A program made the translations under genes and the position numbers. Positions 1-54,127 of a stretch of DNA of 64,000 nucleotides are shown piece by piece. Numbering within the stretch: position 1 is the first letter of the stretch; the number at the start of each line of letters is the position of its first letter. Source of the DNA: Escherichia coli (GTDB taxonomy: Bacteria; Pseudomonadota; Gammaproteobacteria; Enterobacterales; Enterobacteriaceae); assembly GCF_009931435.1 (NCBI RefSeq), contig NZ_CP043414.1; one strand, given 5' to 3'. The notes beneath the pieces are model-generated. The model saw nothing but the letters and a program-made list of their open reading frames with translations. It had not been told where the DNA came from and ran no database searches.

Positions 1-305
1 AGTACGGCGAGTGGCGCACCGGCGTTCGTTCGGAAGGTACGGTCTACACCGGCTTCACCTTCTTTCGCAAAGTATCTCAGGCGCTGGCAGGTTTCTTCCC
101 AGGCTGGATGCTGACGCAAATCGGCTATGTGCCAAACGTGGCGCAGGCTGACCATACCATCGAAGGTTTACGCCAGCTGATCTTCATCTACCCAAGCGCA
201 CTGGCGGTAGTCACCATTGTGGCGATGGGTTGCTTCTACAGTCTGAACGAGAAAATGTACGTCCGCATTGTTGAAGAAATAGAAGCCCGTAAACGCACGG
301 CATAA
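1..305 (+). CDS. yihP: GPH-family sugar:cation symporter, 3' fragment (gene begins upstream of window)
   Basis: Frame open from position 1 to stop at 305; C-terminus is paralogous to the downstream YihO C-terminus (EG.VYTG.TFFRK...GYVPN); position matches K-12 synteny. Confidence 0.75.
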   Translation, partial: YGEWRTGVRSEGTVYTGFTFFRKVSQALAGFFPGWMLTQIGYVPNVAQADHTIEGLRQLIFIYPSALAVVTIVAMGCFYSLNEKMYVRIVEEIEARKRTA

Positions 306-339
306 ATAATAAACAACGCCCTGCGGGGCGTTATAAGGA

Positions 340-1749
340 GTGATTATGTCTGACCATAATCCACTGACATTAAAACTGAATCTGCGGGAAAAAATCGCTT
401 ATGGCATGGGCGACGTCGGTTCGAATTTAATGCTTAGCATCGGCACTCTGTATCTCCTCAAATTTTATACCGATGAATTAGGGATGCCTGCTTACTATGG
501 CGGGATTATCTTTCTGGTGGCGAAATTCTTTACCGCGTTTACCGATATGCTCACCGGATTTTTACTCGACTCGCGGAAAAATATTGGGCCTAAAGGCAAA
601 TTTCGTCCCTTTATTTTATATGCAGCGGTTCCGGCGGCGTTAATTGCAACGCTCCAGTTTATCGCCACCACCTTTAGTTTGCCGGTTAAAACGACGATTG
701 CCACCGCGCTGTTTATGATGTTTGGACTTTCATACAGTCTGATGAACTGCTCGTATGGCGCGATGATCCCGGCCATTACCAAAAACCCCAATGAGCGCGC
801 GCAGCTCGCAGCTTATCGACAAGGAGGAGCCACCATAGGGCTATTGATTTGTACCGTGGCGTTTATTCCGTTGCAGTCGCTATTTTCTGACCCCACCGTC
901 GGTTACGCCTGCGCGGCACTGATGTTCTCCATTGGCGGCTTTATTTTTATGATGCTGTGCTACAGAGGCGTCAAAGAGCATTATGTGGACGCAACGCCAA
1001 CCGGACATAAAGCCAGTATTCTCAAATCATTTTGCGCGATATTTCGTAATCCGCCATTGCTGGTTTTATGCATTGCTAACCTGTGTACCCTGGCGGCATT
1101 TAATATCAAACTGGCAATTCAGGTCTATTACACCCAGTATGTGCTGAATGATATTAATTTATTGTCGTGGATGGGATTCTTCAGTATGGGATGCATCCTC
1201 ATCGGCGTATTGCTGGTGCCATTAACTGTAAAATGTTTTGGTAAAAAACAGGTTTATTTAGCTGGCATGGTGCTGTGGGCGGTGGGGGATATCCTGAATT
1301 ATTTCTGGGGCAGTAACTCTTTCACTTTCGTCATGTTCTCTTGTGTCGCCTTTTTTGGTACGGCCTTTGTAAACAGCCTGAACTGGGCGCTGGTACCGGA
1401 TACCGTAGATTATGGTGAATGGAAAACCGGTATTCGTGCCGAAGGTTCTGTTTATACCGGTTATACCTTCTTTCGTAAAATTTCAGCCGCACTTGCTGGC
1501 TTCTTGCCAGGCATTATGCTGACGCAAATCGGTTATGTTCCCAACATCGCGCAAAGCGATGCAACATTACAGGGTTTGCGTCAGCTCATTTTTATTTGGC
1601 CTTGTGCGCTGGCGATAATTGCTGCATTGACGATGGGATTCTTTTACACGCTCAATGAAAAACGTTTTGCGTTAATTATTGAGGACATCAACCAACGTAA
1701 AAATAAAGAGATTGAGACAAAAGAAAAAACTGCTTCCGTAACGTTATAA
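340..1749 (+). CDS. yihO: GPH-family transporter (putative sulfoquinovose importer)
   Basis: 469-aa ORF with multi-TM hydrophobic profile; true start may be the ATG at 346 (MSDHNPL); synteny with ompL and yihN. Confidence 0.85.
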   Translation: MIMSDHNPLTLKLNLREKIAYGMGDVGSNLMLSIGTLYLLKFYTDELGMPAYYGGIIFLVAKFFTAFTDMLTGFLLDSRKNIGPKGKFRPFILYAAVPAALIATLQFIATTFSLPVKTTIATALFMMFGLSYSLMNCSYGAMIPAITKNPNERAQLAAYRQGGATIGLLICTVAFIPLQSLFSDPTVGYACAALMFSIGGFIFMMLCYRGVKEHYVDATPTGHKASILKSFCAIFRNPPLLVLCIANLCTLAAFNIKLAIQVYYTQYVLNDINLLSWMGFFSMGCILIGVLLVPLTVKCFGKKQVYLAGMVLWAVGDILNYFWGSNSFTFVMFSCVAFFGTAFVNSLNWALVPDTVDYGEWKTGIRAEGSVYTGYTFFRKISAALAGFLPGIMLTQIGYVPNIAQSDATLQGLRQLIFIWPCALAIIAALTMGFFYTLNEKRFALIIEDINQRKNKEIETKEKTASVTL

Positions 1750-1816
1750 ATGTCAATAGCCGCTATTTCCATCCTGATGGGTGGCGGCCCCCCTACGTTA
1801 AAAAAATGGACTTATT

Positions 1817-2509
1817 ATGAAAAAGATTAATGCAATAATTTTATTATCTTCTCTGACCTCTGCCTCGGTATTTGCTGGCGCATACGTCGAAAACAGGGAG
1901 GCATATAATCTCGCCTCCGATCAGGCAGAAATTATGCTACGTGTAGGTTATAACTTCGATATGGGCGCGGGTATCATGTTAACCAATACCTATAATTTTC
2001 AGAGAGAAGATGAGCTTAAACATGGCTACAATGAAATTGAAGGTTGGTATCCTTTATTCAAACCAACCGATAAATTAACCATCCAACCCGGTGGCTTAAT
2101 TAATGATAAAAGCACCGGTTCCGGTGGTGCAGTATATCTGGACGTCAACTATAAATTTGTACCATGGTTTAATCTGACAGTGCGAAATCGCTATAACCAT
2201 AATAACTATAGTTCAACAGATTTGAACGGGGAGCTGGATAATAATGACACCTATGAAATTGGTACCTACTGGAATTTTAAAATCACCGAGAAATTCTCCT
2301 ATACATTTGAGCCACATTATTTCATACGCGTAAATGACTTTAATAGCAGCAATGGAAAAGATCATCATTGGGAAATCACTAATACCTTCCGTTACCGTAT
2401 TAATGAACACTGGCTGCCTTATTTCGAATTACGCTGGTTAGATCGTAATATAGAACCATACCACCGCGAGCAAAACCAGATTCGTATCGGGACGAAGTAT
2501 TTCTTCTGA
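1817..2509 (+). CDS. ompL: outer membrane porin OmpL
   Basis: 230-aa ORF with N-terminal signal peptide (MKKINAIILLSSLTSASVFA) and aromatic-rich beta-barrel-like sequence ending in F; synteny. Confidence 0.85.
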   Translation: MKKINAIILLSSLTSASVFAGAYVENREAYNLASDQAEIMLRVGYNFDMGAGIMLTNTYNFQREDELKHGYNEIEGWYPLFKPTDKLTIQPGGLINDKSTGSGGAVYLDVNYKFVPWFNLTVRNRYNHNNYSSTDLNGELDNNDTYEIGTYWNFKITEKFSYTFEPHYFIRVNDFNSSNGKDHHWEITNTFRYRINEHWLPYFELRWLDRNIEPYHREQNQIRIGTKYFF

Positions 2510-2599
<90 letters not shown>

Positions 2600-2600
<1 letters not shown>

Positions 2601-3865
2601 CAAGCTTCAGCCGCCAGCATCTCTTTCTTACGTTGGCTAATACGCTTAACCAGCATTACGGAAACCACCGCACCACAGAATGCGAAGCAGGCCATAATGC
2701 CAAACACGATTTTGTAGCCAATAATCCCCGGATTTAAATCCAGAATGTAACCATACAGACTGAAGCAGAACATCGCCGGGGCGTAACCGATAAAGCTACC
2801 CAACGCCATCGCCGCGCCTGTTTTATTTTCAGCAATTTTTGCTTCGCCGATAGGTGCAAAAAATACGGCTCGCTGTGTAAAGACTATCGCGCCAAAGCCT
2901 AATGTACAGGCCATCCCTAAATAGACCGGCATACTTTCGTGCGGCAGCATAATCAACAGTACGAGCGCAGCGGTACTGATGATAAAGGTGTAGCATAGAT
3001 ATTTACTCGGCGATTTCAGGATCTTATCTGAAATCATGCCACCAATCGGTCCACCGATCATTTTCAGACAGTATTGGTTAATGATGCCGTAAGCACCCAC
3101 CAGCGCAACGGGCAGCAGATAGATGTTTTTCAGGAATGGAATGAAGAATGTCAGGCCACAGTAAACCGCGTAAACGAAGAAGACGTTGAAAGCGATAAGC
3201 CAGATGGTTTTATCTCTCAGCACCGAAGTCATACTGGTGTTTTGCGATGCTTCGTCTTCTTTTTTCACCTCCACGGACGGTGCCTCTTCTTTGTCATTGA
3301 GTACAAAGAAAATGATAACGCCCACGGCAATCACAATAAGGGAATAGAACCAGATACCCGCTTTAAAGCCCAACAAGCCACTGCCAAACCAGGTAAATAC
3401 TGCCAACGCAGAAAATGCCACCACAGTATCGACAATTCCACGCCCTGTTTCGAAGAAGCCAAACAAACGACCTTGTTGTTCGCTATTGCCCAGTCGACTT
3501 ACCGACTTGAGCAAGACAGGCCAGTTCATCATGTCGCAGGTAACGCCAAATAGCGCCCAGACAAAGAGGATGCCCCAATACCCCGGCATTGTCGTCAAAT
3601 AAACACCCAGTAATCCCGTCGCAATGAGGGAGAATGACATGGTGTATCTGCGCGGTAGTTTATCGGCAAAATAAATAGACAGAAAAAAGCCCACTGTGGT
3701 GACAAATGAGTTTACCGACATAGCATTACCAATTTGACCATTGGTCAAATGGAAATATTCCTGCATCGGGATATAAAACGCATCTTTCAACGACGGTAAT
3801 TTATAAATTGTACCGCCACACAGTGTTAATAGACTAAATAACGCCCATTTCTTTTTCGTGAGCAT
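2600..3865 (-). CDS. yihN: MFS transporter
   Basis: 421-aa hydrophobic ORF; synteny. Confidence 0.85.
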
Positions 3866-3964
3866 AACATCCCCTAAGCGATTTTGAAAATCACTGTTCT
3901 AAAGGCAATAAGATACCGGCCATTCTTATGGAATGGTTTTTATTAACAGCGGATGAGTTAAAGC

Positions 3965-4948
3965 TTATGAGTGGTTCAGAAGATGGCTTGCCTCTTGTTT
4001 GATTTGTTGTAGTACGTTACGCACATGATTTATCTGATTAATTGCATCTTCTTTTTCTTTACGTAACCGCGCATCCAGTAAATGATTTTCTGGCAGTGGT
4101 GTTTCACTCATCTGGCGATAAGGGATCCACGGATTATCATCTTCGTCTTCAAAGCGGAACGCCGGAGCATAATAATCAACCTCTTCTTCCAGGCCATACG
4201 CTGTCACCTGCGGTTCTTCATCGCCAAGGCAGATAAGGTGTGTTAATAACTCTTTGAATGGCATATCACCCTGACCTGAAATACAGGCTTTATGGCCCAG
4301 GCCACCTTGTTCTTTAACAATCAAGGCATCTTTGATATGGACCTGGGTAATATGTGGTGCCATCGTTTTTAAAGCGTCTATGGGATGCTCATTCGCATTG
4401 ATCATATTCGCAAAATCAAACAGTAAGGAAAGTGATTTCATCTCACTGTCTTTGACCAGCGACACCAGTTCATGGCTTTTTAAATCTTCATGCTGTTCGA
4501 TCGTAAAGGTCAGGCCGCTGTCCTGATACGTTTCCCGAACATAGGCAATATCGTTAGCAATGATCGATAATACGTCGCGTAAATTACCTTCATAACGCGG
4601 ATAAAAACGCACGGACGATGCCCCGGTTTTCAACGCAATGGCGACGGCTTCGTCAATAGATGCCTTATCTGAAGCGCTGGTTTCAATATGAATATCAAGG
4701 TTCAGATGGCGGGCTTTATCGCCAAAGGCAGAGAGTTCTTTATCTGCCATATTGCCCAAAGAAAAACGTTCGCCATCCAGAACATGAATTTTTACGCCTC
4801 GCAGATTATTTTCACTCGCAATATCAAGTAAATCAGCTGGCAATACTCTTTCCAGCCGCATATTTAAATGAAAAGCGTAGGCATGCAAATAAAGAGGAAG
4901 AGTATCGACACGTTGTAGAATCTTTCTTGCGTTATTTATTGTCACCAT
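3965..4948 (-). CDS. yihM: sugar-phosphate isomerase/epimerase (TIM-barrel) family protein
   Basis: ORF track gives 345 aa from 5002; start at MVTINNARK (4948) gives 327 aa and avoids overlap with yihL. Confidence 0.8.
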   Translation of the reverse strand: MVTINNARKILQRVDTLPLYLHAYAFHLNMRLERVLPADLLDIASENNLRGVKIHVLDGERFSLGNMADKELSAFGDKARHLNLDIHIETSASDKASIDEAVAIALKTGASSVRFYPRYEGNLRDVLSIIANDIAYVRETYQDSGLTFTIEQHEDLKSHELVSLVKDSEMKSLSLLFDFANMINANEHPIDALKTMAPHITQVHIKDALIVKEQGGLGHKACISGQGDMPFKELLTHLICLGDEEPQVTAYGLEEEVDYYAPAFRFEDEDDNPWIPYRQMSETPLPENHLLDARLRKEKEDAINQINHVRNVLQQIKQEASHLLNHS

Positions 4949-4955
4949 AAAACAC

Positions 4956-5666
4956 CTACAGATTAATGATGAGATCCACGGCCTCAAATCGCCAATATTC
5001 AATATCTATCTGGACAATATTGCCTTGCTGGTCAGCGCGATGTTTTTCAATTAAGATCGCAGGCATGCCCGCTGAACCGCCAAGAAATTTACTGATATCA
5101 CCCGGCATTCTTACGGGTTTGAAAACCAGTTTTTTTACTACCGTCTCTTTTTGGTAGCATTTTTCCCAGACTGAAGAAAATGAGTGGTTTTCAAGTTGCT
5201 CTATAAAACCTGGGGCAACTTCAGGATTAATATATGTTTCGTGATAGAAAACTTTATGTCCTTCCAGCGCCCCCCAGCCGGTAATGCGATAGAGTTCAGT
5301 TGATGGCGTCACTGCAACCAGTGGCGCGAGCGTCTCGGGAATGTCGCTGGTACGGCTTTTCTCAGTAAAGCCCCAGGAAGGTTCCCGCCCTTGCTCAATT
5401 GCGGCCCGCTGAAAGCTCGCCGACAGCTCCGGACTGTAATTAAATCGCGGCTGAGTCACGAACCACCCTTTACGATCCTTACGGAAAATTTTGGATTCTG
5501 CCTCAAGGTTCAGCAACGCCTGGCGTAACGTCATACGTTTAATGCCCAGCAACTCTCCCAGCTCTCTTTCTGAAGGGAGTTTTCCACCCGGCGTGGTGAT
5601 GCCATCTTTCAACCACCGATCCAGTTTCTCTTTTGCATTTTCTACGGTGGATTGATTCTCCGCCAT
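4956..5666 (-). CDS. yihL: GntR-family transcriptional regulator
   Basis: 236-aa ORF with N-terminal wHTH (ERELGELLGIKRMTLRQAL); synteny. Confidence 0.85.
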   Translation of the reverse strand: MAENQSTVENAKEKLDRWLKDGITTPGGKLPSERELGELLGIKRMTLRQALLNLEAESKIFRKDRKGWFVTQPRFNYSPELSASFQRAAIEQGREPSWGFTEKSRTSDIPETLAPLVAVTPSTELYRITGWGALEGHKVFYHETYINPEVAPGFIEQLENHSFSSVWEKCYQKETVVKKLVFKPVRMPGDISKFLGGSAGMPAILIEKHRADQQGNIVQIDIEYWRFEAVDLIINL

Positions 5667-12244: not shown

Positions 12245-12355
12245 ATGCTGGAATCAATAATTAATCTGGTATCGAGTGGCGCAGTTGACAGCCACACACC
12301 GCAAACTGCCGTTGCTGCCGTGCTGTGTGCTGCGATGATTGGGCTGTTTAGCTGA
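12245..12355 (+). CDS. yshB: small membrane protein, 36 aa (below the ORF-track length cutoff)
   Basis: ATG at 12245 preceded by ggggagag RBS; translation MLESIINLVSSGAVDSHTPQTAVAAVLCAAMIGLFS; position between glnG and hemN as in K-12. Confidence 0.7.
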   Translation: MLESIINLVSSGAVDSHTPQTAVAAVLCAAMIGLFS

Positions 12356-12361
12356 AGCTCG

Positions 12362-12520
12362 TTGTTTATGCCGGATGCGGAGAAAGTCGTAGGCCTGATA
12401 AGACGCGACCAGCGTCGCATCAGGCATCATGCTCAGATGCCGGATGCCGGATGCCGGATGCCGGATGCCGGATGCCGGATGCAGCGTAAACGCCTTATCC
12501 GGCCTACAAAAGCAATAATT
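12362..12520. repeat. REP/BIME cluster containing a 6-copy tandem heptamer (atgccgg)
   Basis: REP consensus units plus atgccgg x6 at 12437-12478. Confidence 0.75.
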
Positions 12521-12618
12521 TCAACAGGTTTTCTTAACCAGCGCATCAGGCAATCTTGTTCTCAGCACATTGATGGCGCTTTCGTTTTCTACTTTGTAAA
12601 CGAAGCGCCATTCACCAT

Positions 12619-13992
12619 TTAAATCACTCGTGAGAACTGCTGCATCCGCGCTTTCTGGCGCAGATAGGTATCAAAGCACATGCAAATGTTGCGGATCAGC
12701 AGGCGACCTTTCGCCGTTACCTGAATCCCCTTCTCATCCACATCCACCAGCCCATCTTTTGCTAACGGGGCAAGCAGCTTGAGATCTTCTGCAAAGTAGT
12801 CAGCGAAGTGCAAATCCCACTGTTGCTCAATGGGGGCATAATCCAGACGGAAGTTGCAGATGAGCGACTTAATCACATCGCGACGAATACAGTCATCACG
12901 CGTTAGCGCAATACCACGCCACAGCGCATTGCCTTGTTCATCCACTTGCTGATAGTACTGCTTCAACTCTTTCTGATTCTGCGCGTAGCAGTCGCCAATC
13001 ATGCTAATGGCTGAAACGCCCATCCCCAGCAGATCGGTATCGCCCTGAGTGGTGTAGCCCTGGAAGTTACGATGAAGCACGCCTTCACGTTGGGCCACCG
13101 CCAGCTCATCATCCGGGCGAGCAAAGTGATCCATACCGATAAACTGATAGCCCGATTGTGTCAGGAAGGCGATGGTTTCCTGCAGGATATCGAGTTTTTG
13201 CTGCGGACTCGGCAGGTCAGCATCTTTGATTTTACGCTGAGCAGCAAAAATGGTCGGCAAATGCGCGTAGTTAAAGACACTCAGGCGATCGGGGTTAAGT
13301 TCCGCCACGCGTTTCAGGGTAAAGGCGAAACTCTCCGGCGTCTGTTTCGGCAGGCCGTAAATCAGGTCGATGTTGGTGGAAGTAAAGCCAATCTCACGCG
13401 CATGGTTAAGCAGTGCAAAGATGAACTCTTCATCCTGCTCGCGGTTAACCAGACGTTGCACTTCTTTGTTGAAGTCCTGCACGCCCATGCTCAGGCGATT
13501 AAAGCCTTCGGCGCGTAAATGATCGAGTACATCCAGTTCGATTTCCCGCGGATCGACTTCGATCGAAATCTCCGCATCGGCATTGAACTGGAAGTTTTCG
13601 CGCAGCAACTTCATCAGTCGGCTGATTTGCGCTTTGTTCAGATACGTCGGCGTACCACCGCCCCAGTGCAATTGGCTGACGTGACGCCCGGCGAACAGCG
13701 GTGCACGATGGACGATTTCTTGCTCCAGCGCGTCCAGATACTGATCGGCCTTGTGCTGCTGGCGAGTAACAATCTTATTGCAACCGCAGAAGTAACAAAG
13801 CTTATGGCAGAACGGGATATGTACGTAGAGAGATAATGGACGCTCAGGATAGCGCGCCACGGCTTGTAAAAACGCCTGTTCGCCGAAGTCTTCTGAAAAC
13901 TCCAGCGCGGTCGGGTACGAGGTGTATCGTGGCCCGGAATAGTTATATTTCTGGATCAGGGCCAGATCCCAGTCGATTTGCTGTACAGACAT
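12619..13992 (-). CDS. hemN: oxygen-independent coproporphyrinogen III oxidase (radical SAM)
   Basis: CxxxCxxC radical-SAM motif (HIPFCHKLCYFCGCN); start taken at MSVQQIDW (457 aa). Confidence 0.95.
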   Translation of the reverse strand: MSVQQIDWDLALIQKYNYSGPRYTSYPTALEFSEDFGEQAFLQAVARYPERPLSLYVHIPFCHKLCYFCGCNKIVTRQQHKADQYLDALEQEIVHRAPLFAGRHVSQLHWGGGTPTYLNKAQISRLMKLLRENFQFNADAEISIEVDPREIELDVLDHLRAEGFNRLSMGVQDFNKEVQRLVNREQDEEFIFALLNHAREIGFTSTNIDLIYGLPKQTPESFAFTLKRVAELNPDRLSVFNYAHLPTIFAAQRKIKDADLPSPQQKLDILQETIAFLTQSGYQFIGMDHFARPDDELAVAQREGVLHRNFQGYTTQGDTDLLGMGVSAISMIGDCYAQNQKELKQYYQQVDEQGNALWRGIALTRDDCIRRDVIKSLICNFRLDYAPIEQQWDLHFADYFAEDLKLLAPLAKDGLVDVDEKGIQVTAKGRLLIRNICMCFDTYLRQKARMQQFSRVI

Positions 13993-14690: not shown

Positions 14691-14759
14691 AATGGTTCGT
14701 CTTTTAGCCGTTTTATTCAGTATAGATTTGCGGCGGAATCTAACAGAAAGCAAGCAAAG

Positions 14760-15001
14760 AAAAAAGGCGACAGATTACTCTGTCGCCTTTTTTCCTGACT
14801 CATAACCCTTAACGGGTCTTACAATCCCTGCAGGCCGCCAACACACCCTGTTTTTCCATTAGCCGGAACAATCCGTGTTGATTCCATTTCCGTTTAATTA
14901 CGTCTCCGGACGTTTGTCTTCCTGACAATCCTCTGTCTTCGCCTCCTGGCGCTCCTGACCCTCATCCTGAGTCATTGTTCCTGTTAGCGTCCTCGCTCTA
15001 T
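14760..15001 (-). ncRNA. csrC: CsrC small RNA (CsrA-sequestering)
   Basis: Minus-strand sequence begins ATAGAGCGAGGACGCTAACAGGAACAATGACTCAGGATGAGGG, has multiple GGA motifs, and ends with a GGCGACAGAGTAATCTGTCGCC hairpin plus U-run; 3' end approximate. Confidence 0.8.
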
Positions 15002-15998: not shown

Positions 15999-16107
15999 TA
16001 AAAAACGCCCCAGTCATTACTGACTGGGGCGGCTAAAATATTCAGCCAAATCCGATTACGTGAAGTAAAAGGTCTGAAAGATAGAACATCTTACCTCTGT
16101 ACCCTAC
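15999..16107 (-). ncRNA. spf: Spot 42 small RNA
   Basis: Minus strand reads GTAGGGTACAGAGGTAAGATGTTCTATCTTTCAGACCTTTTACTTCACGTAATCGGATTTGGCTGAATATTTTAGCCGCCCCAGTCAGTAATGACTGGGGCGTTTTTTA, including the terminator hairpin. Confidence 0.92.
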
Positions 16108-16254
16108 GCGACTAACTTTACTCTTTTTTGTTCAGTTCAGAAAGCATTTTTTGTAATTTTTTTTCAGTTGTTGCATAGGAATTTCTAATAGCCATCACAA
16201 AACGTGACAGCTTATGTTGCTTACTTACGAAAAAAGGGCATGTTCAGGCGAATC

Positions 16255-21962: not shown

Positions 21963-22589
21963 TTATTTTTTCTCGGACAGATATTTCACAGTATCAGCAT
22001 ACTGCTGAACAAAAACATCCATATTGCTGGTATCCATACCCTGCGGATTCAGCTGATATTTACCGTTAACAAACATCGCCGGAACGCCACGCAATTGCAC
22101 GTCGGCTGCGGCTTTTTCCTGCTGAGCCACCAGAGATTTCACCACGAAGCTGTTCCAGGCCGCGTCGTACTCTTCACCTTTAATACCTGCGTTGATAAAT
22201 ACATCGCGGATATCAGATGCAGAACGAATGGTCTGGGTTTTCTGTACGCCTTCAAACAGCGGAACAGTCACTTTGTCTTCCACGCCCAGCGCCATCGCCA
22301 CTGCCCATGCCTGAGTCAGTTCTTTGCCCAGATCCCCACCCATGAAGTTGACGTGGTATTTAGTCATTTTCACGCCTTCCGGCAGTTTTTTCTTCACGTT
22401 CTCAGAAATATGCAGAACTTCTTCAAACTGATAGCAGTGCGGGCAGAAGAAAGAGAAAAACTCCAGCACTTGCGGCGCGCCAGCAACCGGTTTTTCCAGG
22501 GTGGTGTACTGTTTACCATCTTCATACTGCGCCGCCGATGCGCTAAACGCTAAAACTAAACCAGCCAGCGCCAGCCAAATCTTTTTCAT
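21963..22589 (-). CDS. dsbA: periplasmic thiol:disulfide oxidoreductase DsbA
   Basis: 208 aa, signal peptide, CPHC active site ([13 protein letters not shown]). Confidence 0.97.
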
Positions 22590-22605
22590 GATCTACTCTC
22601 TCCGA

Positions 22606-23592
22606 TTAATACATAGGTGTTAATTGCAAAGGGGGTTCTTGTAGAACTTTTGCCTGTTCTATAAAAGTCGCCGTCTGTCGCAGCCAGTAATCTTCCCCGG
22701 TTAACCACGGGAAATTTTTCGGGAACGCGGGATCAGCCCAACGCCGCATTAGCCAGGCAAGATAATAAACCAAACGCATGGCGCGTAAAGGTTCAATCAG
22801 TCCGATTTCAGCGATATCGAACTCGCTAAATTCTTCATAAGCCTCAATAATAGTTTCCAGTTGCATCCGCTGCTCAGCTTTATCGCCATTGAGCAACATC
22901 CACAAATCCTGAATAGCCGGACCATTACGTGCATCATCCAGATCAACAAACATTGGACCATCGCGCCAGAGGATATTCCCGGCGTGGCAGTCTCCATGTA
23001 GCCGCAGAACGGTGAAATCTTCCCGCCAGTGTGCTGTAACGGCGGCGATCAGCTCATCTGTCGCTTTCAGGAATGCCGCTTTCAACCCGGAAGGTATCAG
23101 TGTGGCGTCCTCAAACAGCTTGCGTGGCTCAATGAGATATTCATTCAGACCGATGGTCGGGCGATGGATAAAAAGCTGTTTGCGCCCCGTCTGGTGCATA
23201 CGCCCTAAATAACGCCCAACAGCTTCCATCTGATCGATATTATCAGCTTCGAACTGGCGACCACCGACGCTTGGAAAAACAGCGAAATAAAATCCCTGAT
23301 GATTCAATAAAGTCTGACCGTTAAAGGCCACAGGCGCTGCGACCGGAACTTCATCGTTAACCAGCTGCAACGCAAATTGATGTTCTTCGAAGATTTGATC
23401 GGCTGTCCAACGTTCAGGGCGATAAAATTTGACGACAAAACGTCGACGATCTTCGTCCTGAAATTGATAGACACGGTTTTCATAGCTGTTAAGCGGGGTA
23501 AGACCGGAATCCACCCGGATCCCATGCTCAAACAGAGCGTCCATGATGGTATCCGGGTGTAGTGTCTGGAAAGTAAAAGCGCTGTTGTTCAT
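22606..23592 (-). CDS. srkA: stress response Ser/Thr kinase SrkA (YihE/RdoA)
   Basis: 328 aa; kinase-like HGDCHAGNILW and DLDDA motifs. Confidence 0.9.
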   Translation of the reverse strand: MNNSAFTFQTLHPDTIMDALFEHGIRVDSGLTPLNSYENRVYQFQDEDRRRFVVKFYRPERWTADQIFEEHQFALQLVNDEVPVAAPVAFNGQTLLNHQGFYFAVFPSVGGRQFEADNIDQMEAVGRYLGRMHQTGRKQLFIHRPTIGLNEYLIEPRKLFEDATLIPSGLKAAFLKATDELIAAVTAHWREDFTVLRLHGDCHAGNILWRDGPMFVDLDDARNGPAIQDLWMLLNGDKAEQRMQLETIIEAYEEFSEFDIAEIGLIEPLRAMRLVYYLAWLMRRWADPAFPKNFPWLTGEDYWLRQTATFIEQAKVLQEPPLQLTPMY

Positions 23593-48288: not shown

Positions 48289-48404
48289 AACGCCTCCAGC
48301 CTCATTACTTACCCGCACAAAATAGAATTGTGCTGTACAAACGTCCAGTTTGAAAGAAGTTTCCTGCGAGGCGCTACGCAAAACGATCCTTAATTTTTAT
48401 TATT

Positions 48405-48444
48405 TTATCCCACAATATGAGACCTAGTTTATATTGTGGGATAA
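48405..48444. promoter_or_regulatory. perfect 14-bp inverted repeat, candidate operator
   Basis: ttatcccacaatat-N12-atattgtgggataa, 60-100 bp upstream of the IclR-family gene and about 120 bp upstream of divergent rmuC; no flanking U-run on either strand. Confidence 0.45.
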
Positions 48445-48503
48445 ATCACCTTTTCCCCACGTCATTATGTGGAACACTTCAGCAATATCATCAGGAGAAA
48501 CGT

Positions 48504-49271
48504 ATGGCAGATACCTCTTCAACCACCGCTGGCGCACAAACGTTATTACGCGGGCTCGCGGTTCTTAATGCTGTTTATAACGGCTGCCATGACCTGAAAA
48601 GTATCGGCGAGTTCACCGGCACGACCCGGAGCACAACCCATCGTTTAGTCACCGTTCTGGTGGAACAACGCTACCTGCGCCACGTCCCAACGCAGGGCTA
48701 CCAACTGGGCGCCAAACTGATCGAATTCGGTGCCAGAGCGCTGGAAAGCACCTCGCTGTACGAAGTTGCGCTGCCCGTTTTGCAACGCCTTGCCCGTTAC
48801 ACCCTGGACACCGTGCATCTGGGGATCGTTGAAGGCGACGAAGTGCTGTATCTGGAGAAGATCAACAGCCAGCGCGGGCTGGAAATGCGCTCACGCCCAG
48901 GCCATCGCATGCCACTGGCAATCACCGGCATCGGCAAGGCATTGATCCTCAACCGAACAGAAGAAGAGTGGCGCACGCTGTTTAAGACCTGTGGTGATGA
49001 AACAAAACTGGGCGCATTTATTCAGAACATGCGTCGTTATGCCGCGAGTGGTTTTGCTTTTGATCTGGAAGAGAACGAGCCGACTATCCGTTGCGTTGCA
49101 GCGCCGGTTTACAACGCCCGGGATGAAATTGTGGCGGCTATTTCTGTCGCCAGTACCACTACGTATATGTCACTGGCGCGTCTGGAAGAACTGGCACCTT
49201 ACGTCAAATCCTGTGCAGAAGAGATATCCGCTGAACTGGGCTGGGGTAAGCACGTCCGCAAAAATAAATAA
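48504..49271 (+). CDS. IclR-family transcriptional regulator
   Basis: Start chosen at MADTSSTTAGAQTLLRGLAVLNAV (aggag RBS); N-terminal wHTH plus C-terminal effector-domain pattern typical of IclR regulators. Confidence 0.8.
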   Translation: MADTSSTTAGAQTLLRGLAVLNAVYNGCHDLKSIGEFTGTTRSTTHRLVTVLVEQRYLRHVPTQGYQLGAKLIEFGARALESTSLYEVALPVLQRLARYTLDTVHLGIVEGDEVLYLEKINSQRGLEMRSRPGHRMPLAITGIGKALILNRTEEEWRTLFKTCGDETKLGAFIQNMRRYAASGFAFDLEENEPTIRCVAAPVYNARDEIVAAISVASTTTYMSLARLEELAPYVKSCAEEISAELGWGKHVRKNK

Positions 49272-49294
49272 ACCATGACTAAAGGAAACGGCTA

Positions 49295-50299
49295 ATGTCG
49301 GGAAACACCTCATTTATTGCCCTGGACTGGGGAACGTCATCGCTTCGGGCATGGCGTTTTGGCGATTCACCAAATCCACAAGAAAAACGTGAATTCCCGT
49401 GGGGGATCATGAAATTACCCTCCCAGGCAGCAACACGTGAGGACGCTTTCCACGATACGTTTTTACGTGTCTGCGGCGACTGGCTGGCACAATCCCCATG
49501 CCCGGTTCTGGCTTGCGGCATGATCGGCAGTGCGCAAGGGTGGCAACCCGCAGCTTATTTACCTTGCCCGGTCACTCTCGAGGGTCTGGCAAAGCAGTTG
49601 ACGCCTGTTATCCACCAGCAGCAGACAATGCTGCATATTATTCCTGGCGTGATTAAAGAAGGTGAAATGCCCGAAGTAATGCGTGGTGAAGAGACACAAA
49701 TCTTCGGTGCTATCTCGATGGAACCGGCCCTGCAAAACGCGATCCGCCAGGGTATGCCTGTGCTGATTGGCTTACCTGGCACACATGCGAAATGGGCGGT
49801 AGTTGAAAACAACACCATTACCGATTTCCGAACCTTTATGACTGGCGAGTTATTTGATGTTTTATCCCGCCATTCGATTCTCGGTGCCACCATGCGTTCG
49901 GGAGATGAACCGCACTGGGATGCCTTCACCCATGGGCTGACAGCAGCACAAGAGCATCATCAGACCGGATTATTATCGACGCTGTTTTCGACCCGTTCGC
50001 GCCTGCTGACCAGTAATCTTACGCCGTCCTCACAGGGGGATTACCTTTCAGGATTACTGATAGGCCATGAATTATGCGGTCTGGCATCCAGTTTGCTACG
50101 TGATTTACCCGCCACAACACCGATCGCCTTAATCGGTAGCGCCACTCTGAACAGCCGCTATTCACAAGCATTCAGCCACGTTTTTCCCGACAGACAGCTA
50201 CACGCCATTCCTAATGCCACTGAACAGGGGTTATGGCGAATCGCCCACGTTGCCGGGCTACTCTCCACCAACGCCAGGGAATGTACCCATGCCATTTAA
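49295..50299 (+). CDS. 2-dehydro-3-deoxygalactonokinase-like sugar-acid kinase (DgoK family)
   Basis: 334 aa; N-terminal IALDWGTSSLRAW and VMRGEETQIFGA / TGELFD..LS.HS.LGA / LSGLLIG motifs align with E. coli DgoK as I recall it. Confidence 0.8.
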   Translation: MSGNTSFIALDWGTSSLRAWRFGDSPNPQEKREFPWGIMKLPSQAATREDAFHDTFLRVCGDWLAQSPCPVLACGMIGSAQGWQPAAYLPCPVTLEGLAKQLTPVIHQQQTMLHIIPGVIKEGEMPEVMRGEETQIFGAISMEPALQNAIRQGMPVLIGLPGTHAKWAVVENNTITDFRTFMTGELFDVLSRHSILGATMRSGDEPHWDAFTHGLTAAQEHHQTGLLSTLFSTRSRLLTSNLTPSSQGDYLSGLLIGHELCGLASSLLRDLPATTPIALIGSATLNSRYSQAFSHVFPDRQLHAIPNATEQGLWRIAHVAGLLSTNARECTHAI

Positions 50300-50918
50300 T
50301 ACGCTTTTGCAAAAAACCGGGTTAGTCGCCATTTTACGCGGCGTGAAACCGGATGAGATTGTCGCCATCGGTGAAAAGCTGTATGCCGCTGGATTTCGCC
50401 TGATTGAGATTCCCATGAACTCGCCGGAGCCGTTGCAAAGTATCAGTTTACTGCGCGACGCCCTGCCTAAGGACTGCCTGGTCGGAGCCGGAACGGTGCT
50501 TTCGGTGGAGCAAGTCGTCGCGGTTAAAGAGGCTGGAGGCCAGATTATCGTGATGCCGCATTGCGATACTGCGGTGATCCGTCGTGCCCGTGCGCTGGGT
50601 ATGTATTGTGCGCCTGGCGTCGCTACGCCCACCGAAGCTTTTGCTGCCATTGAACATGGCGCCAATGCCATCAAGCTGTTCCCGGCTGAACAAATTACGC
50701 CTGAAGTCACCAAAGCCTGGCGTGCGGTTATTCCACAATCCGTTCCGATGTTACCGGTTGGCGGTATCACTCCAGACACAATGGCGCGTTATCTGAGCCA
50801 CGGCGCAAACGGCTTTGGCCTCGGTTCTGCGCTATATCGCCCCGGCATGACGCCAGAGCAAGTCTATGAAAATGCAGTACTGTTTATGAACGCATGGAAC
50901 AATTTAAATAGCAAATAA
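50289..50918 (+). CDS. 2-dehydro-3-deoxy-6-phosphogalactonate (KDPGal/KDPG) aldolase-like
   Basis: Start at MPFNTLLQKTGLVAILRG (209 aa), overlapping the kinase gene by 11 bp; AILRG...EIP.NSP...GAGTVL...GG(I/V)TP motifs of the Eda/DgoA family. Confidence 0.8.
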   Translation: MPFNTLLQKTGLVAILRGVKPDEIVAIGEKLYAAGFRLIEIPMNSPEPLQSISLLRDALPKDCLVGAGTVLSVEQVVAVKEAGGQIIVMPHCDTAVIRRARALGMYCAPGVATPTEAFAAIEHGANAIKLFPAEQITPEVTKAWRAVIPQSVPMLPVGGITPDTMARYLSHGANGFGLGSALYRPGMTPEQVYENAVLFMNAWNNLNSK

Positions 50919-50942
50919 CTGATAAATAAGGATATAAAAGCA

Positions 50943-51917
50943 ATGATAAAACATCTTACCTTACCGAAAAAAATGGCTGCAATGGTACTTCTTGCCGGCG
51001 CTGCCCTCAGCACTGCGCCTGTACAGGCGGCCTCCTGGCCAACCAAACAAATCGAGTTAGTCGTACCCTACGCGGCCGGAGGCGGTACGGACCTGGTTGC
51101 CCGAGCCTTTGCTGATGCCGCCAAAAACCATTTACCCGTCAGCATCGGGGTTATCAATAAACCTGGCGGTGGCGGCGCTATCGGCCTGAGTGAAATCGCC
51201 GCTGCCCGCCCTAACGGTTACAAAATGGGTTTAGGCACGGTTGAACTGACCACCCTTCCCAGCCTCGGAATGGTGCGTTTTAAAACCAGCGACTTTAAAC
51301 CCATTGCCCGTCTGAATGCGGATCCGGCGGCTATCACCGTCCGTGCCGATGCGCCGTGGAATAGCTATGAAGAATTTATGACTTACGCCAAAGCGAATCC
51401 CGGAAAAGTACGCATTGGTAACTCAGGCACCGGAGCAATCTGGCATCTGGCGGCAGCTGCACTGGAAGACAAAACGGGCGTGAAGTTTTCTCATGTCCCG
51501 TATGACGGCGCAGCCCCTGCCATTACAGGCCTGTTAGGCGGGCATATTGAAGCGGTTTCCGTAAGCCCAGGTGAAGTTATCAATCATGTGAAAGGCGGCA
51601 AGCTGAAGACACTGGTAGTGATGGCGGATGAACGTATGAAAACCATGCCTGACGTCCCGACGTTAAAAGAGAAAGGCGTTGATCTCTCCATCGGCACCTG
51701 GCGCGGCCTGATTGTGTCGCAAAAAACGCCGCAGGATGTGGTGGATGTGCTGGCAAAGGCAGCAAAAGAGACGGCTGAAGAGCCTGCATTCCAGGATGCA
51801 CTGCAAAAGTTGAATCTCAACTATGCATGGCTTGATGGTGCCAGCTTCCAGACCCAAATCAACGAGCAGGAAAAGTACTTTGACGAGCTTCTGACTCGCC
51901 TGGGCCTGAAAAAATAA
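50943..51917 (+). CDS. tctC: tripartite tricarboxylate transporter, periplasmic substrate-binding protein (TctC/Bug family)
   Basis: 324 aa; signal peptide then ASWPTKQIELVVPYAAGGGTDLVAR, typical Bug-family N-terminus. Confidence 0.8.
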   Translation: MIKHLTLPKKMAAMVLLAGAALSTAPVQAASWPTKQIELVVPYAAGGGTDLVARAFADAAKNHLPVSIGVINKPGGGGAIGLSEIAAARPNGYKMGLGTVELTTLPSLGMVRFKTSDFKPIARLNADPAAITVRADAPWNSYEEFMTYAKANPGKVRIGNSGTGAIWHLAAAALEDKTGVKFSHVPYDGAAPAITGLLGGHIEAVSVSPGEVINHVKGGKLKTLVVMADERMKTMPDVPTLKEKGVDLSIGTWRGLIVSQKTPQDVVDVLAKAAKETAEEPAFQDALQKLNLNYAWLDGASFQTQINEQEKYFDELLTRLGLKK

Positions 51918-51933
51918 TCCCGAGGTACGGTCG

Positions 51934-52440
51934 ATGAACACAAAACAGTCTGTTGCTCAACTCGCCGTACCGCACCGCAAGCGCCTTTCATCCACTGTGG
52001 TGGTGGCGCTGTTACTTTGTGTGGTTGCTGGCGCGGTGATAATTAATGCCGCTGATTTTCCAGCAACTGCCATTGAAACGGATCCCGGTGCAAGTGCCTT
52101 CCCTACTTTCTATGCCTGCGCTCTGATTGTGCTCGCTGTCTTACTGGTGATACGCGATCTTTTGCTGGCAAAACCAGTCCCTTGCGCCAACGCACAGGAA
52201 AAACCGGCATTAAGGAAAACGGCAACAGGAATTGCGGCAACCGCGTTTTATATTGTGGCGATGAGCTACTGCGGTTATCTCGTTACTACTCCTGTTTTCC
52301 TCATCGTCATTATGACGTTGATGGGCTACAGGCGATGGGTACTCACTCCGGGTATTGCGCTGCTGTTAACGGCAATCCTCTGGTTGCTGTTTGTCGAAGC
52401 GTTACAGGTGCCATTGCCTGTCGGCACATTTTTCGAATAA
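51934..52440 (+). CDS. tctB: tripartite tricarboxylate transporter small membrane subunit (TctB-like)
   Basis: 168-aa 4-TM protein between tctC-like and tctA-like genes. Confidence 0.7.
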   Translation: MNTKQSVAQLAVPHRKRLSSTVVVALLLCVVAGAVIINAADFPATAIETDPGASAFPTFYACALIVLAVLLVIRDLLLAKPVPCANAQEKPALRKTATGIAATAFYIVAMSYCGYLVTTPVFLIVIMTLMGYRRWVLTPGIALLLTAILWLLFVEALQVPLPVGTFFE

Positions 52441-52452
52441 CAGGGGCCTGCA

Positions 52453-53943
52453 ATGTTTGAAAGTGAACTTTTAACTCAGGGGTTTTCGACATTACTCAGT
52501 AATCCTCAGGCGCTGCTGTTTGCCACGTTTGGAGTGATGCTGGGTATTATGATTGGCGCTCTGCCTGGCCTGACAGCGACCATGGGTGTGGCGATTTTGC
52601 TGCCTTTCACCTACGGCATGGAGCCTGTTTCTGGCTTGTTGATGATTTGCGGTGTCTTTTTTGGTGGTGTGTATGGTGGTTCTATCACCGCAATTTTGCT
52701 CAAAATTCCCGGTACACCTGCCGCCGCTGCCACCGCCATTGACGGTTATGAGTTAACGAAGCAGGGAAAAGCCGGGCTGGCATTAAGTGCCGCCACGTTC
52801 TCTTCTTTTAGCGGTGGAACGCTCAGCATTATCGTATTGATGTTTCTCTCTCCGGTCCTTGCTAGTTGGGCGTTGAAATTTAGTGCCTCGGAGTCCTTCG
52901 CCCTGGCAACCTTCGGACTGAGCATTATTGCCAGTATTTCCGGTGAGTCGCTGATTAAAGGGCTGATCGCCGGGATTGGCGGATTAATGATCGCAACGAT
53001 AGGCCTCGATCCGATGGGCGGTTTTCCACGCTTTACGGGCGGGTTTGTGGAACTGATGAATGTGCCATTTATCCCGGTGATGATTGGTCTGTTTGCTGCT
53101 TCAGAAGCGTTCCGTTCTATGGAACAAAATCAGCATATTCGTCAGAGCGCGAACGTGGCTATCGGCAGTCTGTTACTGCCCTGGCAAACGCTACGCCGCA
53201 TCGCATTAACCATTTTGCGCTCATCAGGATTAGGGGTTTTTATCGGCATGATCCCCGGTGCGGGGGCAGATATTGCAGCTTTTGTTGCCTATAACGAAAC
53301 TCGTCGTTTCAGTAAGACGCCTGAAAACTTTGGTAAGGGTGAGATTAAGGCGGTGGCCTCCTGTGAGGCAGGCGCGAATGGCTGCACCGGTGGCGCATTG
53401 TTACCTATGCTGACGTTGGGGATCCCAGGCGATGCGGTAACTGCCATCATGCTGGGCGCGTTAACGTTACAAGGGATGCAGCCAGGCCCACTGATGTTTA
53501 CCGACCACGGCGATATGGTTTATACGTTATTTGTCGGCATGATCTTCTGTTACTTCATGCTGCTAGTTCTTGGACTGCTCTCTTTGAAAGTCATCGGTAA
53601 CGTGGTGAAAATTCCCGGCAATATTCTCACACCGATGATCCTCGCACTTTGTGTGGTCGGGACTTATGCGTTGAACAATAGCCTGTTTGATGTTGGCATT
53701 ATGCTGATTGCAGGCGTGGTGGGCTATTTCATGCAAAAAGGGGGATATCCGGCATCACCCGTAGTGCTGGCATTGATTATGGGGCCAATGGCGGAAAGTA
53801 ATTTTCGCCGTGCGCTGTCGCTTTCAGGGGGGTCACTCGACTTCCTGTATACCCGACCGATAACCCTGGCATTGCTGACACTGGCAGCCTTTACGCTACT
53901 GACGCCAATAATACGCAAAATTATGCGCTTACGGCGTCAGTAA
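52453..53943 (+). CDS. tctA: tripartite tricarboxylate transporter large permease subunit (TctA-like)
   Basis: 496-aa polytopic membrane protein with duplicated GxPGxxA / IPGxPA-type motifs. Confidence 0.85.
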   Translation: MFESELLTQGFSTLLSNPQALLFATFGVMLGIMIGALPGLTATMGVAILLPFTYGMEPVSGLLMICGVFFGGVYGGSITAILLKIPGTPAAAATAIDGYELTKQGKAGLALSAATFSSFSGGTLSIIVLMFLSPVLASWALKFSASESFALATFGLSIIASISGESLIKGLIAGIGGLMIATIGLDPMGGFPRFTGGFVELMNVPFIPVMIGLFAASEAFRSMEQNQHIRQSANVAIGSLLLPWQTLRRIALTILRSSGLGVFIGMIPGAGADIAAFVAYNETRRFSKTPENFGKGEIKAVASCEAGANGCTGGALLPMLTLGIPGDAVTAIMLGALTLQGMQPGPLMFTDHGDMVYTLFVGMIFCYFMLLVLGLLSLKVIGNVVKIPGNILTPMILALCVVGTYALNNSLFDVGIMLIAGVVGYFMQKGGYPASPVVLALIMGPMAESNFRRALSLSGGSLDFLYTRPITLALLTLAAFTLLTPIIRKIMRLRRQ

Positions 53944-53964
53944 TTGATATCGCTCCCCGACGTT

Positions 53965-54110: not shown

Positions 54111-54127
54111 GTTAACAACAATCGGAA

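What the first reader, a model, noticed from the sequence alone, without database searches (positions are those of the whole stretch)
12437..12478. Six-copy tandem heptamer inside a REP cluster between yshB and hemN
atgccgg is repeated six times in perfect tandem within REP-like DNA. Such short tandem repeats are prone to slipped-strand expansion and contraction and could be a strain-variable marker, or could modulate REP secondary structure at the hemN 3' end.
Basis: seen in the sequence. Interest (0 to 1): 0.3.

Follow-up and report, generated by a model that had tools for sequence, protein, structure and literature searches.

The report
Hypervariable heptamer repeat on a REP element
A seven-base unit at the inner end of a common E. 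coli intergenic palindrome (REP) has expanded into a short tandem array whose copy number differs even between almost identical strains; it is a genuine, apparently uncatalogued strain marker of an ordinary kind, with no sign of a biological function.

Summary
Window 12436-12482 holds (GATGCCG)x6 plus a terminal GATGC, with no mismatches. It is the only such array in the 64 kb window, and none appeared in 100 shuffles.

The array lies between the convergent genes yshB and hemN. It is fused to the untagged end of a Y-type REP, which forms a tail-to-tail pair with a second REP.

It grew from a 12-bp proto-repeat, GATGCCGGATGC, which most related E. coli carry unexpanded. None of 5,426 complete E. 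coli genomes has more than 2 units.

Four draft assemblies differ from the window by 0-3 SNPs over about 11 kb. They carry 4, 4, 5 and 5 units against 6 here, and that is their only indel at the locus. Other backgrounds expanded separately:
- 8 units, beside a near-identical relative with 1 unit.
- 3 units on another REP allele.
- 2 units in two complete genomes.

A different REP, between phrB and dtpD in another Escherichia species, shows the same kind of expansion.

Best reading: a neutral, slippage-driven VNTR. It lies 3' of both genes, and predicted folding keeps the REP-pair stems intact. The same heptamer is the unit of the Salmonella MLVA locus SENTR6/SE-2. This is a new member of a known kind, of low to moderate interest.

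The parts
12245..12355 (+). yshB, a 36-aa small membrane protein. Its stop codon lies 80 nt upstream of the array.
   Evidence: ORF list. Annotated as yshB in the homologous position of E. coli genomes. Pfam PF28018 YshB in related contigs.
12368..12380 (.). REP remnant ATGCCGGATGCGG, a truncated REP tail.
   Evidence: Complementary to the tail of REP-A (inverted repeat I5). Conserved in alleles with this architecture.
12389..12428 (+). REP-A: GTAGGCCTGATAAGACGCGACCAGCGTCGCATCAGGCATC. The GTAG tag is at 12389-12392. It looks Z1-like, a type assigned from memory.
   Evidence: Internal palindrome I3, and inverted with respect to REP-B (I1). Folds as a hairpin. Sequence read.
12429..12435 (.). 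7-nt linker ATGCTCA between the two REP tails. It forms the apical loop of the REP-pair hairpin in the unexpanded allele.
   Evidence: Folds of the 1-unit allele.
12436..12482 (+). The tandem array: (GATGCCG)x6 plus terminal GATGC. Its last units are the 5' stem arm of REP-B.
   Evidence: Alignment A1 shows it equals the 2013C-4282 allele plus exactly 35 bp.
12474..12507 (-). REP-B, Y-type: on the + strand GCCGGATGCAGCGTAAACGCCTTATCCGGCCTAC. The GTAG tag is on the - strand at 12507-12504. Its untagged tail carries the array.
   Evidence: Exact match to the 34-nt REP pattern, which has 4 matches in the window against 0 expected. Palindrome I4.
12540..12552 (.). Truncated third REP, AGCGCATCAGGCA. 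It is complete (GTAGGCCTGATAAGCGTAGCGCATCAGGCA) in the Z247, 98192 and O157 alleles.
   Evidence: Alignment A1. Inverted repeat I12.
12575..12609 (-). Invariant hairpin immediately downstream of the hemN stop codon, with no U-tract. It lies between hemN and the REP cluster.
   Evidence: Invariant columns in alignment A1 across all 8 alleles. Paired in all folds. Not called as an intrinsic terminator.
12619..13992 (-). hemN, oxygen-independent coproporphyrinogen III oxidase. Its stop codon lies 136 nt from the array.
   Evidence: The exact protein is found in many E. coli assemblies with Pfam Radical_SAM and HemN_C.

Best explanation
The array is a lineage-restricted, hypermutable heptanucleotide microsatellite (VNTR).

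Origin. It arose from a 12-bp proto-repeat, GATGCCGGATGC. That proto-repeat exists by accident where the linker (..CTCAGAT) meets the untagged tail (GCCGGATGC..) of a Y-type REP. This REP forms a tail-to-tail dimer (a BIME, REPIN-like) with a second REP in the intergenic region between the convergent genes yshB and hemN.

Mechanism. Replication slippage adds or removes whole 7-bp units. The 1-unit state is stable, and instability rises once a few units are present. Each unit is also complementary to the tail of the partner REP, so single-stranded DNA can pair in several registers. That probably helps misalignment.

Effect. The array most likely has no function. It sits 3' of both genes at the apex of the REP-pair hairpin, and it leaves the hairpin's stems intact.

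What is shown: the anatomy, the ancestral state, whole-unit polymorphism, variation among near-identical genomes, and recurrence in separate backgrounds and at a second locus. What is inferred: slippage as the mechanism, hairpin assistance, and neutrality.
For: Ancestral state. Alignment A1 shows the window equals the closest complete-genome allele (2013C-4282) plus exactly 5 heptamers. K-12 has the imperfect form GATGCCTGATGC.

Whole-unit variation. Units counted were: window 6; L138 and L139 5; L140 and L141 4; L145/L151 8; L149 3; MFDS1022581 2; 2013C-4282, L128, L131, L146-148 and L150 1; K-12, L129 and L144 0.

Speed relative to point mutation. L138-L141 share the window's exact PolA protein. 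They differ from the window by 0, 3, 1 and 1 substitutions over 10-11.8 kb. Their only indel at this locus is 7 or 14 bp in the array.

Recurrence.
- L151 (8 units) and L152 (1 unit) differ by 5 substitutions in 11.7 kb, so that expansion is recent and separate from the window's lineage, which is 98.66% identical.
- The 3-unit and 2-unit alleles sit on a different REP allele, GCGGCG.
- A metagenome contig from another Escherichia species carries 4 units fused to the tail of a different Y-REP, between phrB and dtpD. E. coli has about 1.7 imperfect copies there.

Threshold behaviour. In about 1,450 complete genomes with this architecture the maximum is 2 units, seen in only 2 records.

Seed specificity. 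The other 3 Y-REPs in the window lack the preceding GAT, have no proto-repeat, and carry no array.

Position and structure.
- The array is 80 nt past the yshB stop and 136 nt past the hemN stop, and no promoter-like or terminator-like site was called within it.
- The REP-pair stems are unchanged for 0-10 units, at about -3 kcal/mol per added unit.
- In the DNA fold, the frequency of the MFE structure in the ensemble falls from 0.31 to 0.02 on expansion, which indicates register ambiguity.
- Every unit is 92% complementary to the REP-A tail (I6-I11).

Precedent. The same heptamer (GATGCCG / CCGGCAT) is the unit of a validated non-coding VNTR in Salmonella, SE-2 = SENTR6, with 11 alleles among 240 strains.
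Against: - Slippage was not observed directly, and no rate was measured.
- Only 5 genomes of the window's lineage and 2 of the 8-unit lineage were available, because the look-up tool collapses similar contigs (20 were not shown).
- All alleles with 3 or more units other than the window itself come from draft or metagenome assemblies, not from finished genomes.
- Neutrality is inferred from position and predicted folds only. REP clusters are reported to affect mRNA stability and supercoiling, and the array changes the spacing between the two REPs by 35 bp.
- The left flank shared by L145 and the window is identical for 870 bp. An old shared expanded allele moved by recombination is therefore not strictly excluded for that pair.
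Confidence: 0.82

Rival explanations
1. The array is a functional tuner. Copy number would adjust the REP-pair (BIME) structure, and through it yshB or hemN mRNA 3'-end stability or read-through, or gyrase/IHF binding to the BIME. That would make it a contingency-like rheostat under selection.
For: The array lies inside a REP dimer that could be transcribed as the yshB 3' UTR. Each unit adds about -3 kcal/mol to the predicted fold. The spacing between the two REPs grows by 35 bp. REPs and BIMEs have been proposed to act in mRNA stabilisation, termination and supercoiling (PMC3733652). Expansion recurred in several backgrounds.
Against: - The outer stems, which would block exonucleases, are unchanged at every copy number.
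- The array alone is no more structured than shuffles (z = +0.26).
- It is downstream of both stop codons, with no promoter-like site or ORF to switch.
- hemN has its own invariant hairpin between its stop codon and the REPs.
- Nearly all of about 1,450 complete genomes with this architecture appear to keep 0 or 1 unit, and whole REPs are gained or lost at this locus in other strains, such as SF-468. That argues for weak constraint.
Confidence: 0.1
2. The repeats are by-products of the REP-associated tyrosine transposase (RAYT/TnpA-REP) cutting and rejoining at the REP, rather than of replication slippage.
For: The array is fused exactly to a REP end. REPs are RAYT substrates, and tail-to-tail dimers and complex REP arrays have been proposed as RAYT products (PMC3733652). 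A second case also sits on a Y-REP tail.
Against: - The repeated unit is 7 bp, not a REP.
- Changes are of 1-2 units among near-clonal genomes, the signature of slippage.
- RAYT is reported to cleave at the GTAG-tagged end, whereas the array is at the untagged tail.
- A perfect 12-bp proto-repeat is present in every background that expanded and absent from REPs that did not.
Confidence: 0.05
3. The array, or its copy-number differences, is an assembly or sequencing artefact.
For: All other alleles with 3 or more units come from draft assemblies or a metagenome. No finished RefSeq E. coli genome has more than 2 units.
Against: - The array is 26-61 bp long, shorter than typical short reads.
- It is perfect, and its flanks are identical, in at least 7 independent assemblies from different pipelines (NCBI, DDBJ, Logan).
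- All differences are exact multiples of 7.
- Two finished genomes do show 2 units.
Confidence: 0.02
4. The array lies in a small phase-variable ORF, in which 7-bp steps would shift the reading frame.
For: Mechanical ORFs overlap the array: 12362-12622 (+, 86 aa, TTG start) and 12433-12546 (-, 37 aa).
Against: Their translations are REP-derived low-complexity strings such as MPDAGCRMPDAGCRM and RLIRPT. They are made of REP sequence, which is missing or rearranged in other E. coli alleles. Any unit change would destroy them.
Confidence: 0.01

Closest known systems
Salmonella Enteritidis/Dublin MLVA locus SE-2 = SENTR6 (ENTR20)
   Same: It has the identical 7-bp unit (GATGCCG, also written CCGGCAT). 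It is non-coding and highly polymorphic: 11 alleles among 240 strains, Nei diversity 0.64, and 5-9 repeats in another strain set. It belongs to the standard 5-locus S. Enteritidis MLVA scheme (PMC5326744; PMC2040188; PMC2430564; PMC5356433).
   Different: It is in a different genus and presumably at a different locus. Its primers have no match within 4 mismatches near the window's array or in L142. I could not retrieve its flanks, so whether it is also REP-derived is unknown. SENTR6 is variable across a whole serovar, whereas the E. coli locus is expanded only in rare lineages.
REP / BIME / REPIN elements of E. coli (GTAG-tagged repetitive extragenic palindromes)
   Same: The array is physically part of a Y-type REP in a tail-to-tail REP dimer between convergent genes, and that dimer folds as one long hairpin. 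The definitions come from PMC3733652 and PMC3116915 (listed).
   Different: REP and BIME variation is normally described as gain, loss or amplification of whole REP units. This locus shows that as well. Here, in addition, a 7-bp piece of one stem arm is amplified as a microsatellite.
Simple-sequence contingency loci (phase-variable SSRs of Neisseria, Haemophilus, Campylobacter)
   Same: Both are short perfect tandem repeats that change by whole units through slipped-strand mispairing at rates far above point mutation.
   Different: Contingency loci sit in promoters or reading frames and switch genes on or off. This array is 3' of both neighbouring genes and has no identifiable target.
E. coli / Shigella MLVA loci (CVN, O157-n and similar schemes)
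   Same: They are the same class of marker in the same species.
   Different: From my own recollection, those schemes use 6-, 15-, 18- and 39-bp units, with one 7-bp locus on pO157. None is at yshB-hemN. No open-access paper held the array sequence or linked hemN to a VNTR in E. coli. Their absence from closed-access literature was not checked.

Membership tests
VNTR / microsatellite | Head-to-tail copies of a short unit | tested here: met
   TRF reports period 7, 6.7 copies, 100% matches.
VNTR / microsatellite | Copy number differs between strains, in whole units only | tested here: met
   0, 1, 2, 3, 4, 5, 6 and 8 units were found with identical immediate flanks.
VNTR / microsatellite | Changes faster than point substitutions (variation within near-clonal genomes) | tested here: met
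   Genomes with 0-3 SNPs over 10-11.8 kb carry 4, 4, 5, 5 and 6 units. A pair with 5 SNPs over 11.7 kb carries 8 versus 1 unit.
VNTR / microsatellite | Generated by replication slippage | not testable with these tools
   This needs mutation-accumulation or reporter assays. It is inferred from the whole-unit steps and the proto-repeat.
REP (GTAG-tagged repetitive extragenic palindrome) | 20-40 bp imperfect palindrome | tested here: met
   Inverted repeats I3 (REP-A) and I4 (REP-B), and the folds.
REP (GTAG-tagged repetitive extragenic palindrome) | GTAG at one end | tested here: met
   GTAG at 12389-12392 (+), and CTAC at 12504-12507, which reads GTAG on the - strand.
REP (GTAG-tagged repetitive extragenic palindrome) | Many dispersed extragenic copies in the genome | tested here: met
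   The consensus matches 4 times in 64 kb against 0 expected. The 181-bp query hits a median of 4 and up to 16 places per E. coli genome.
BIME / REPIN (REP dimer) | Two REPs in inverted orientation, close together, able to form one long hairpin | tested here: met
   I1 arms 12389-12405 and 12491-12507. The REP-A x REP-B stem appears in the MFE on both strands, as RNA and as DNA (z = -4.2 to -7.3).
BIME / REPIN (REP dimer) | A cognate RAYT transposase in the genome | not testable with these tools
   Only a 64 kb window of this genome is available.
Phase-variation (contingency) locus | The repeat lies in a promoter or coding sequence of the gene it controls | tested here: not met
   The array is 80 nt past the yshB stop and 136 nt past the hemN stop. 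No promoter-like site falls in 12360-12620. The overlapping ORFs are REP translations.
Phase-variation (contingency) locus | Copy number switches expression | not testable with these tools
   This needs expression measurements in isogenic strains.
Salmonella SENTR6/SE-2 locus | Same repeat unit | tested here: met
   The unit is given as GATGCCG (PMC5326744) and as CCGGCAT (PMC2040188).
Salmonella SENTR6/SE-2 locus | Orthologous genomic position, or REP-derived flanks | tested here: inconclusive
   The primers were not found near the array in the window or in L142. No Salmonella sequence could be fetched: the viral scan gave 0 hits, Boxrud 2007 is not held, and no paper describes the flanks.

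The most novel reading that the evidence does not exclude
REP-tail heptamer arrays may be a recurrent, so far unnamed class of hypermutable site in Enterobacteriaceae. Wherever a Y-REP tail (GCCGGATGC) happens to be preceded by GAT or CGGAT, a proto-repeat exists that can expand. Members would include this locus, the phrB-dtpD case, and possibly the standard Salmonella marker SENTR6. Slippage would be assisted by alternative pairing registers with the partner REP. Copy number might then tune REPIN hairpin geometry, and with it RAYT or gyrase recognition or 3'-UTR stability.
Probability: 0.12. Interest if true: 0.5.

Novelty: new member of a known kind. Interest (0 to 1): 0.28.

Why it matters
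In practice it is a very fast-changing marker. It separates isolates that are otherwise identical over more than 10 kb, but only within the few E. coli lineages that carry 3 or more units. It is also a place where short-read assemblies or reference-based variant callers may disagree.

Conceptually it documents how a microsatellite is born. A chance 12-bp proto-repeat at a REP tail stays quiet in well over a thousand genomes. It has then expanded separately several times, at this REP and at another one. This links two classes of bacterial repeat, REPs and VNTRs, that are usually treated apart. It also suggests an origin worth checking for the same-unit Salmonella typing locus SENTR6. No effect on yshB or hemN is indicated.

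Tried and rejected
- **Generic genome scan.** I scanned 100,044 species genomes for (GATGCCG)x4. Their flanks are not REP-like.
- **Exact-HemN look-up.** The protein is too common (2,466 blocks) to pick out the lineage. The PolA and GlnG alleles worked instead.
- **Identifying the strain.**
  - No complete RefSeq E. coli genome is closer than 99.0% over 12 kb.
  - The IS1 end is absent.
  - Synteny with K-12 shows no IS, only two accessory islands.
  - Accession searches in papers found nothing.
  - CP078576 is not in the collection.
  - The lineage therefore remains unnamed. A Shigella origin was considered but is not supported.
- **Literature.**
  - The array sequence gave no hits.
  - All 14 rotations of the heptamer returned only the two Salmonella MLVA papers.
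  - hemN + VNTR returned nothing relevant.
  - REP + tandem repeat + slipped-strand returned background papers only.
  - SENTR6 + intergenic returned nothing.
  - One badly designed search was wasted.
- **SENTR6 flanks.** Primer matching against the window and L142 failed. The viral-contig scan with the primer gave 0 hits. Boxrud 2007 is not held.
- **Rfam.** No known RNA family overlaps the locus. The nearest are CsrC at 14748-15001 and Spot 42 at 15999-16117.
- **Intrinsic terminator or promoter at the array.** None was found.

Full report
**Observation.**
The window reads ...CATCAGGCATC ATGCTCA (GATGCCG)x6 GATGC AGCGTAAACGCCTTATCCGGCCTAC.... Tandem Repeats Finder reports one perfect period-7 array at 12436-12482 with 6.7 copies, 100% matches and score 94. 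It is the only array of this kind in the 64 kb window. A 2.7-unit probe matches five overlapping times here and never in 100 dinucleotide-preserving shuffles.

**Context.**
- glnG ends at 12133, yshB is at 12245-12355 (+), and hemN is at 12619-13992 (-).
- The homologous stretch in E. coli genomes is annotated glnG, yshB and hemN.
- The window is syntenic with K-12 from typA through glnALG, hemN, CsrC, Spot 42, polA and an rrn operon.

The 263-bp gap between the convergent yshB and hemN genes is built from REP sequences:
- a REP remnant at 12368-12380;
- REP-A at 12389-12428 on the + strand, with GTAG at 12389;
- a 7-nt linker;
- the array;
- REP-B at 12474-12507, whose GTAG tag is on the - strand;
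- a truncated third REP at 12540-12552;
- an invariant hairpin at 12575-12609 just after the hemN stop.

REP-B matches a 34-nt Y-REP pattern exactly. That pattern occurs 4 times in the window against 0 expected. The two REPs face each other tail to tail, and the array is fused to the untagged tail of REP-B.

**Where the array came from.**
I aligned the window with seven E. coli alleles (A1). The window equals the allele of strain 2013C-4282 plus exactly 35 bp, which is five heptamers.
- That allele carries GATGCCGGATGC, one full unit plus GATGC. This 12-bp proto-repeat is created where the linker ..CTCAGAT meets the REP tail GCCGGATGC.
- K-12 has the imperfect form GATGCCTGATGC.
- The other three Y-REPs in the window are not preceded by GAT. 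They have no proto-repeat and no array.
- The locus is also polymorphic for whole REPs. There are at least four architectures, including loss of both REPs in SF-468 and an intact third REP in O157, 98192 and Z247.

**Copy number across genomes.**
Among 5,426 complete E. coli genomes none carries the expanded array.
- The spans of the best-ranked matches imply 1 unit.
- Two records (MFDS1022581 and MFDS1019527) have 2 units, confirmed by sequence for the first.
- Any record with 3 or more units would have covered 100% of the query and ranked first. None did.
- About 1,450 genomes share this REP architecture.
- No complete genome is closer than 99.0% to the window over 12 kb, so the window's lineage is not represented there.

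I then looked up the window's exact PolA protein, a rare allele listed in 34 index blocks. This gave four contigs from independent assemblies.

| Locus | Substitutions vs window | Span compared | Units |
|---|---|---|---|
| window | - | - | 6 |
| L138 | 0 | 11.8 kb | 5 |
| L139 | 3 | 11.8 kb | 5 |
| L140 | 1 | 11.8 kb | 4 |
| L141 | 1 | 10.3 kb | 4 |

In each of the four, the only indel at this locus is 7 or 14 bp inside the array.

The window's GlnG allele led to a second lineage, 98.66% identical to the window, with 8 units (L145/L151). Its close relative CP078576.1 (L152) differs by 5 substitutions in 11.7 kb and has 1 unit. A further assembly (L149) has 3 units on a different REP allele, GCGGCG...ACGTC.

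The array has therefore expanded several times in separate backgrounds. It changes on a time scale at which flanking DNA accumulates essentially no substitutions.

**A second locus.**
I scanned metagenome contigs for 3.7 or more units followed by a REP right arm. This returned one contig, L142.
- It is not the yshB-hemN locus. It lies between phrB and dtpD, in DNA about 88% identical to E. coli, so it comes from another Escherichia species.
- Four units are fused to the tail of a Y-REP.
- E. coli has CCGGATGCCGGATAC at that place, again a 1.7-copy proto-repeat.

**Structure.**
On both strands, as RNA or as DNA, REP-A and REP-B pair with each other into one long hairpin with the array at its apex.
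- For 0 to 10 units the outer stems are unchanged, and each unit adds about -3 kcal/mol through weak CCGG:CCGG pairs.
- As DNA, the 1-unit allele folds into one well-defined structure (MFE frequency 0.31, z = -7.3).
- The 6-unit allele has many near-equivalent registers (MFE frequency 0.02). Its centroid leaves the array unpaired.
- The array alone is no more stable than shuffled sequence (z = +0.26).
- Each unit is 92% complementary to the REP-A tail (I6-I11). This gives a plausible route to misaligned pairing in single-stranded DNA.
- No promoter-like or terminator-like site lies in or next to the array, and no Rfam family overlaps it.
- ORFs that run across it are translations of REP sequence.

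**Interpretation.**
The best-supported reading is a neutral heptanucleotide VNTR. It was seeded by a chance proto-repeat at a REP tail and is driven by replication slippage. Instability appears once a few units are present.
- Shown: the anatomy, the ancestral state, whole-unit polymorphism, variation among near-identical genomes, and recurrence.
- Inferred: slippage, hairpin assistance, and lack of function.

Rivals:
- A functional tuner of REP structure or mRNA stability is not excluded. It is disfavoured by position, by the unchanged stems and by weak constraint on the whole REP cluster.
- RAYT-mediated duplication is disfavoured by the 7-bp unit, by 1-2-unit steps among near-clonal genomes, and by the array's position at the untagged end. 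RAYT cleavage is reported at GTAG (PMC3733652).
- An assembly artefact is disfavoured because the array is shorter than a read and is consistent across independent pipelines.
- A phase-variable ORF is disfavoured by the nature of the overlapping ORFs.

**Comparison with what is known.**
The kind of element is well known: a bacterial VNTR. The identical heptamer (GATGCCG / CCGGCAT) is the unit of the non-coding Salmonella locus SE-2 = SENTR6. That locus had 11 alleles among 240 S. Enteritidis strains, and it is one of the five loci of the standard MLVA scheme. I could not obtain its flanks, so whether it too sits on a REP is untested.

No open-access paper contains the array sequence or links hemN or yshB to a VNTR in E. 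coli. From my own recollection, the published E. coli MLVA schemes do not include it.

I therefore file it as a new member of a known kind. It is real, hypervariable and apparently uncatalogued, but mechanistically ordinary. It is useful as a marker only inside the rare lineages that carry an expanded array.

Noticed in passing
window 48384-54155: A 5.8 kb accessory island absent from K-12, between rmuC and udp. It encodes an IclR-family regulator, a 2-keto-3-deoxy-galactonokinase-like kinase and a TctCBA tripartite tricarboxylate transporter.
   Followed up: partly
window 55988-64000: After ysgA the window departs from K-12, which has metE there. It carries an isochorismatase, AllH-like, FdrA-like CoA-ligase and AllG-like proteins, and a cytosine/purine-family permease.
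   Followed up: partly
window 12340-12560 versus L002-L007: The yshB-hemN spacer has at least four REP architectures among E. coli. SF-468 lacks both REPs. O157, 98192 and Z247 have an intact third REP that is truncated in the window and in K-12. 98192 and O157 also replace REP-A with unrelated sequence.
   Followed up: partly
L140 (Logan ERR3469340), corresponding to window 22538-22666: This near-identical relative lacks 129 bp at the srkA 3' end / dsbA start, giving a fused 497-aa gene call. It could be a real deletion or an assembly artefact.
   Followed up: no
L136 (CP137855.1, 4.39 Mb genome): hemN is followed by a glycosyltransferase and a polysaccharide deacetylase instead of yshB-glnG, which indicates a rearrangement at this junction in that genome.
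   Followed up: no
L147 (GCA_015332025.1) 1-5069: Upstream of typA, the yihLMN-ompL genes are replaced by a different set: ATP-grasp, sulfatase, radical SAM and HAD hydrolase.
   Followed up: no
L018-L034, L082-L092, L110-L127 (genome-contig hits): A few MAGs carry (GATGCCG)n arrays on many contigs, often at contig ends, with up to 19 units: Acidobacteriota CSMAG_2587, Planctomycetaceae bin-253, Verrucomicrobiales, and Thermoanaerobaculales GMC8. These are genome-wide heptamer satellites unrelated to REPs.
   Followed up: partly
L142 2623-2700 (metagenome contig OAXB01000016.1): In a non-coli Escherichia, a different Y-REP between phrB and dtpD has the same heptamer expanded to 4 units. E. coli has about 1.7 imperfect copies there.
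   Followed up: yes
window 12575-12609: A 35-nt hairpin directly after the hemN stop codon is invariant in all eight aligned alleles, while the REP cluster beside it varies freely. It has no U-tract and is not called as an intrinsic terminator.
   Followed up: no
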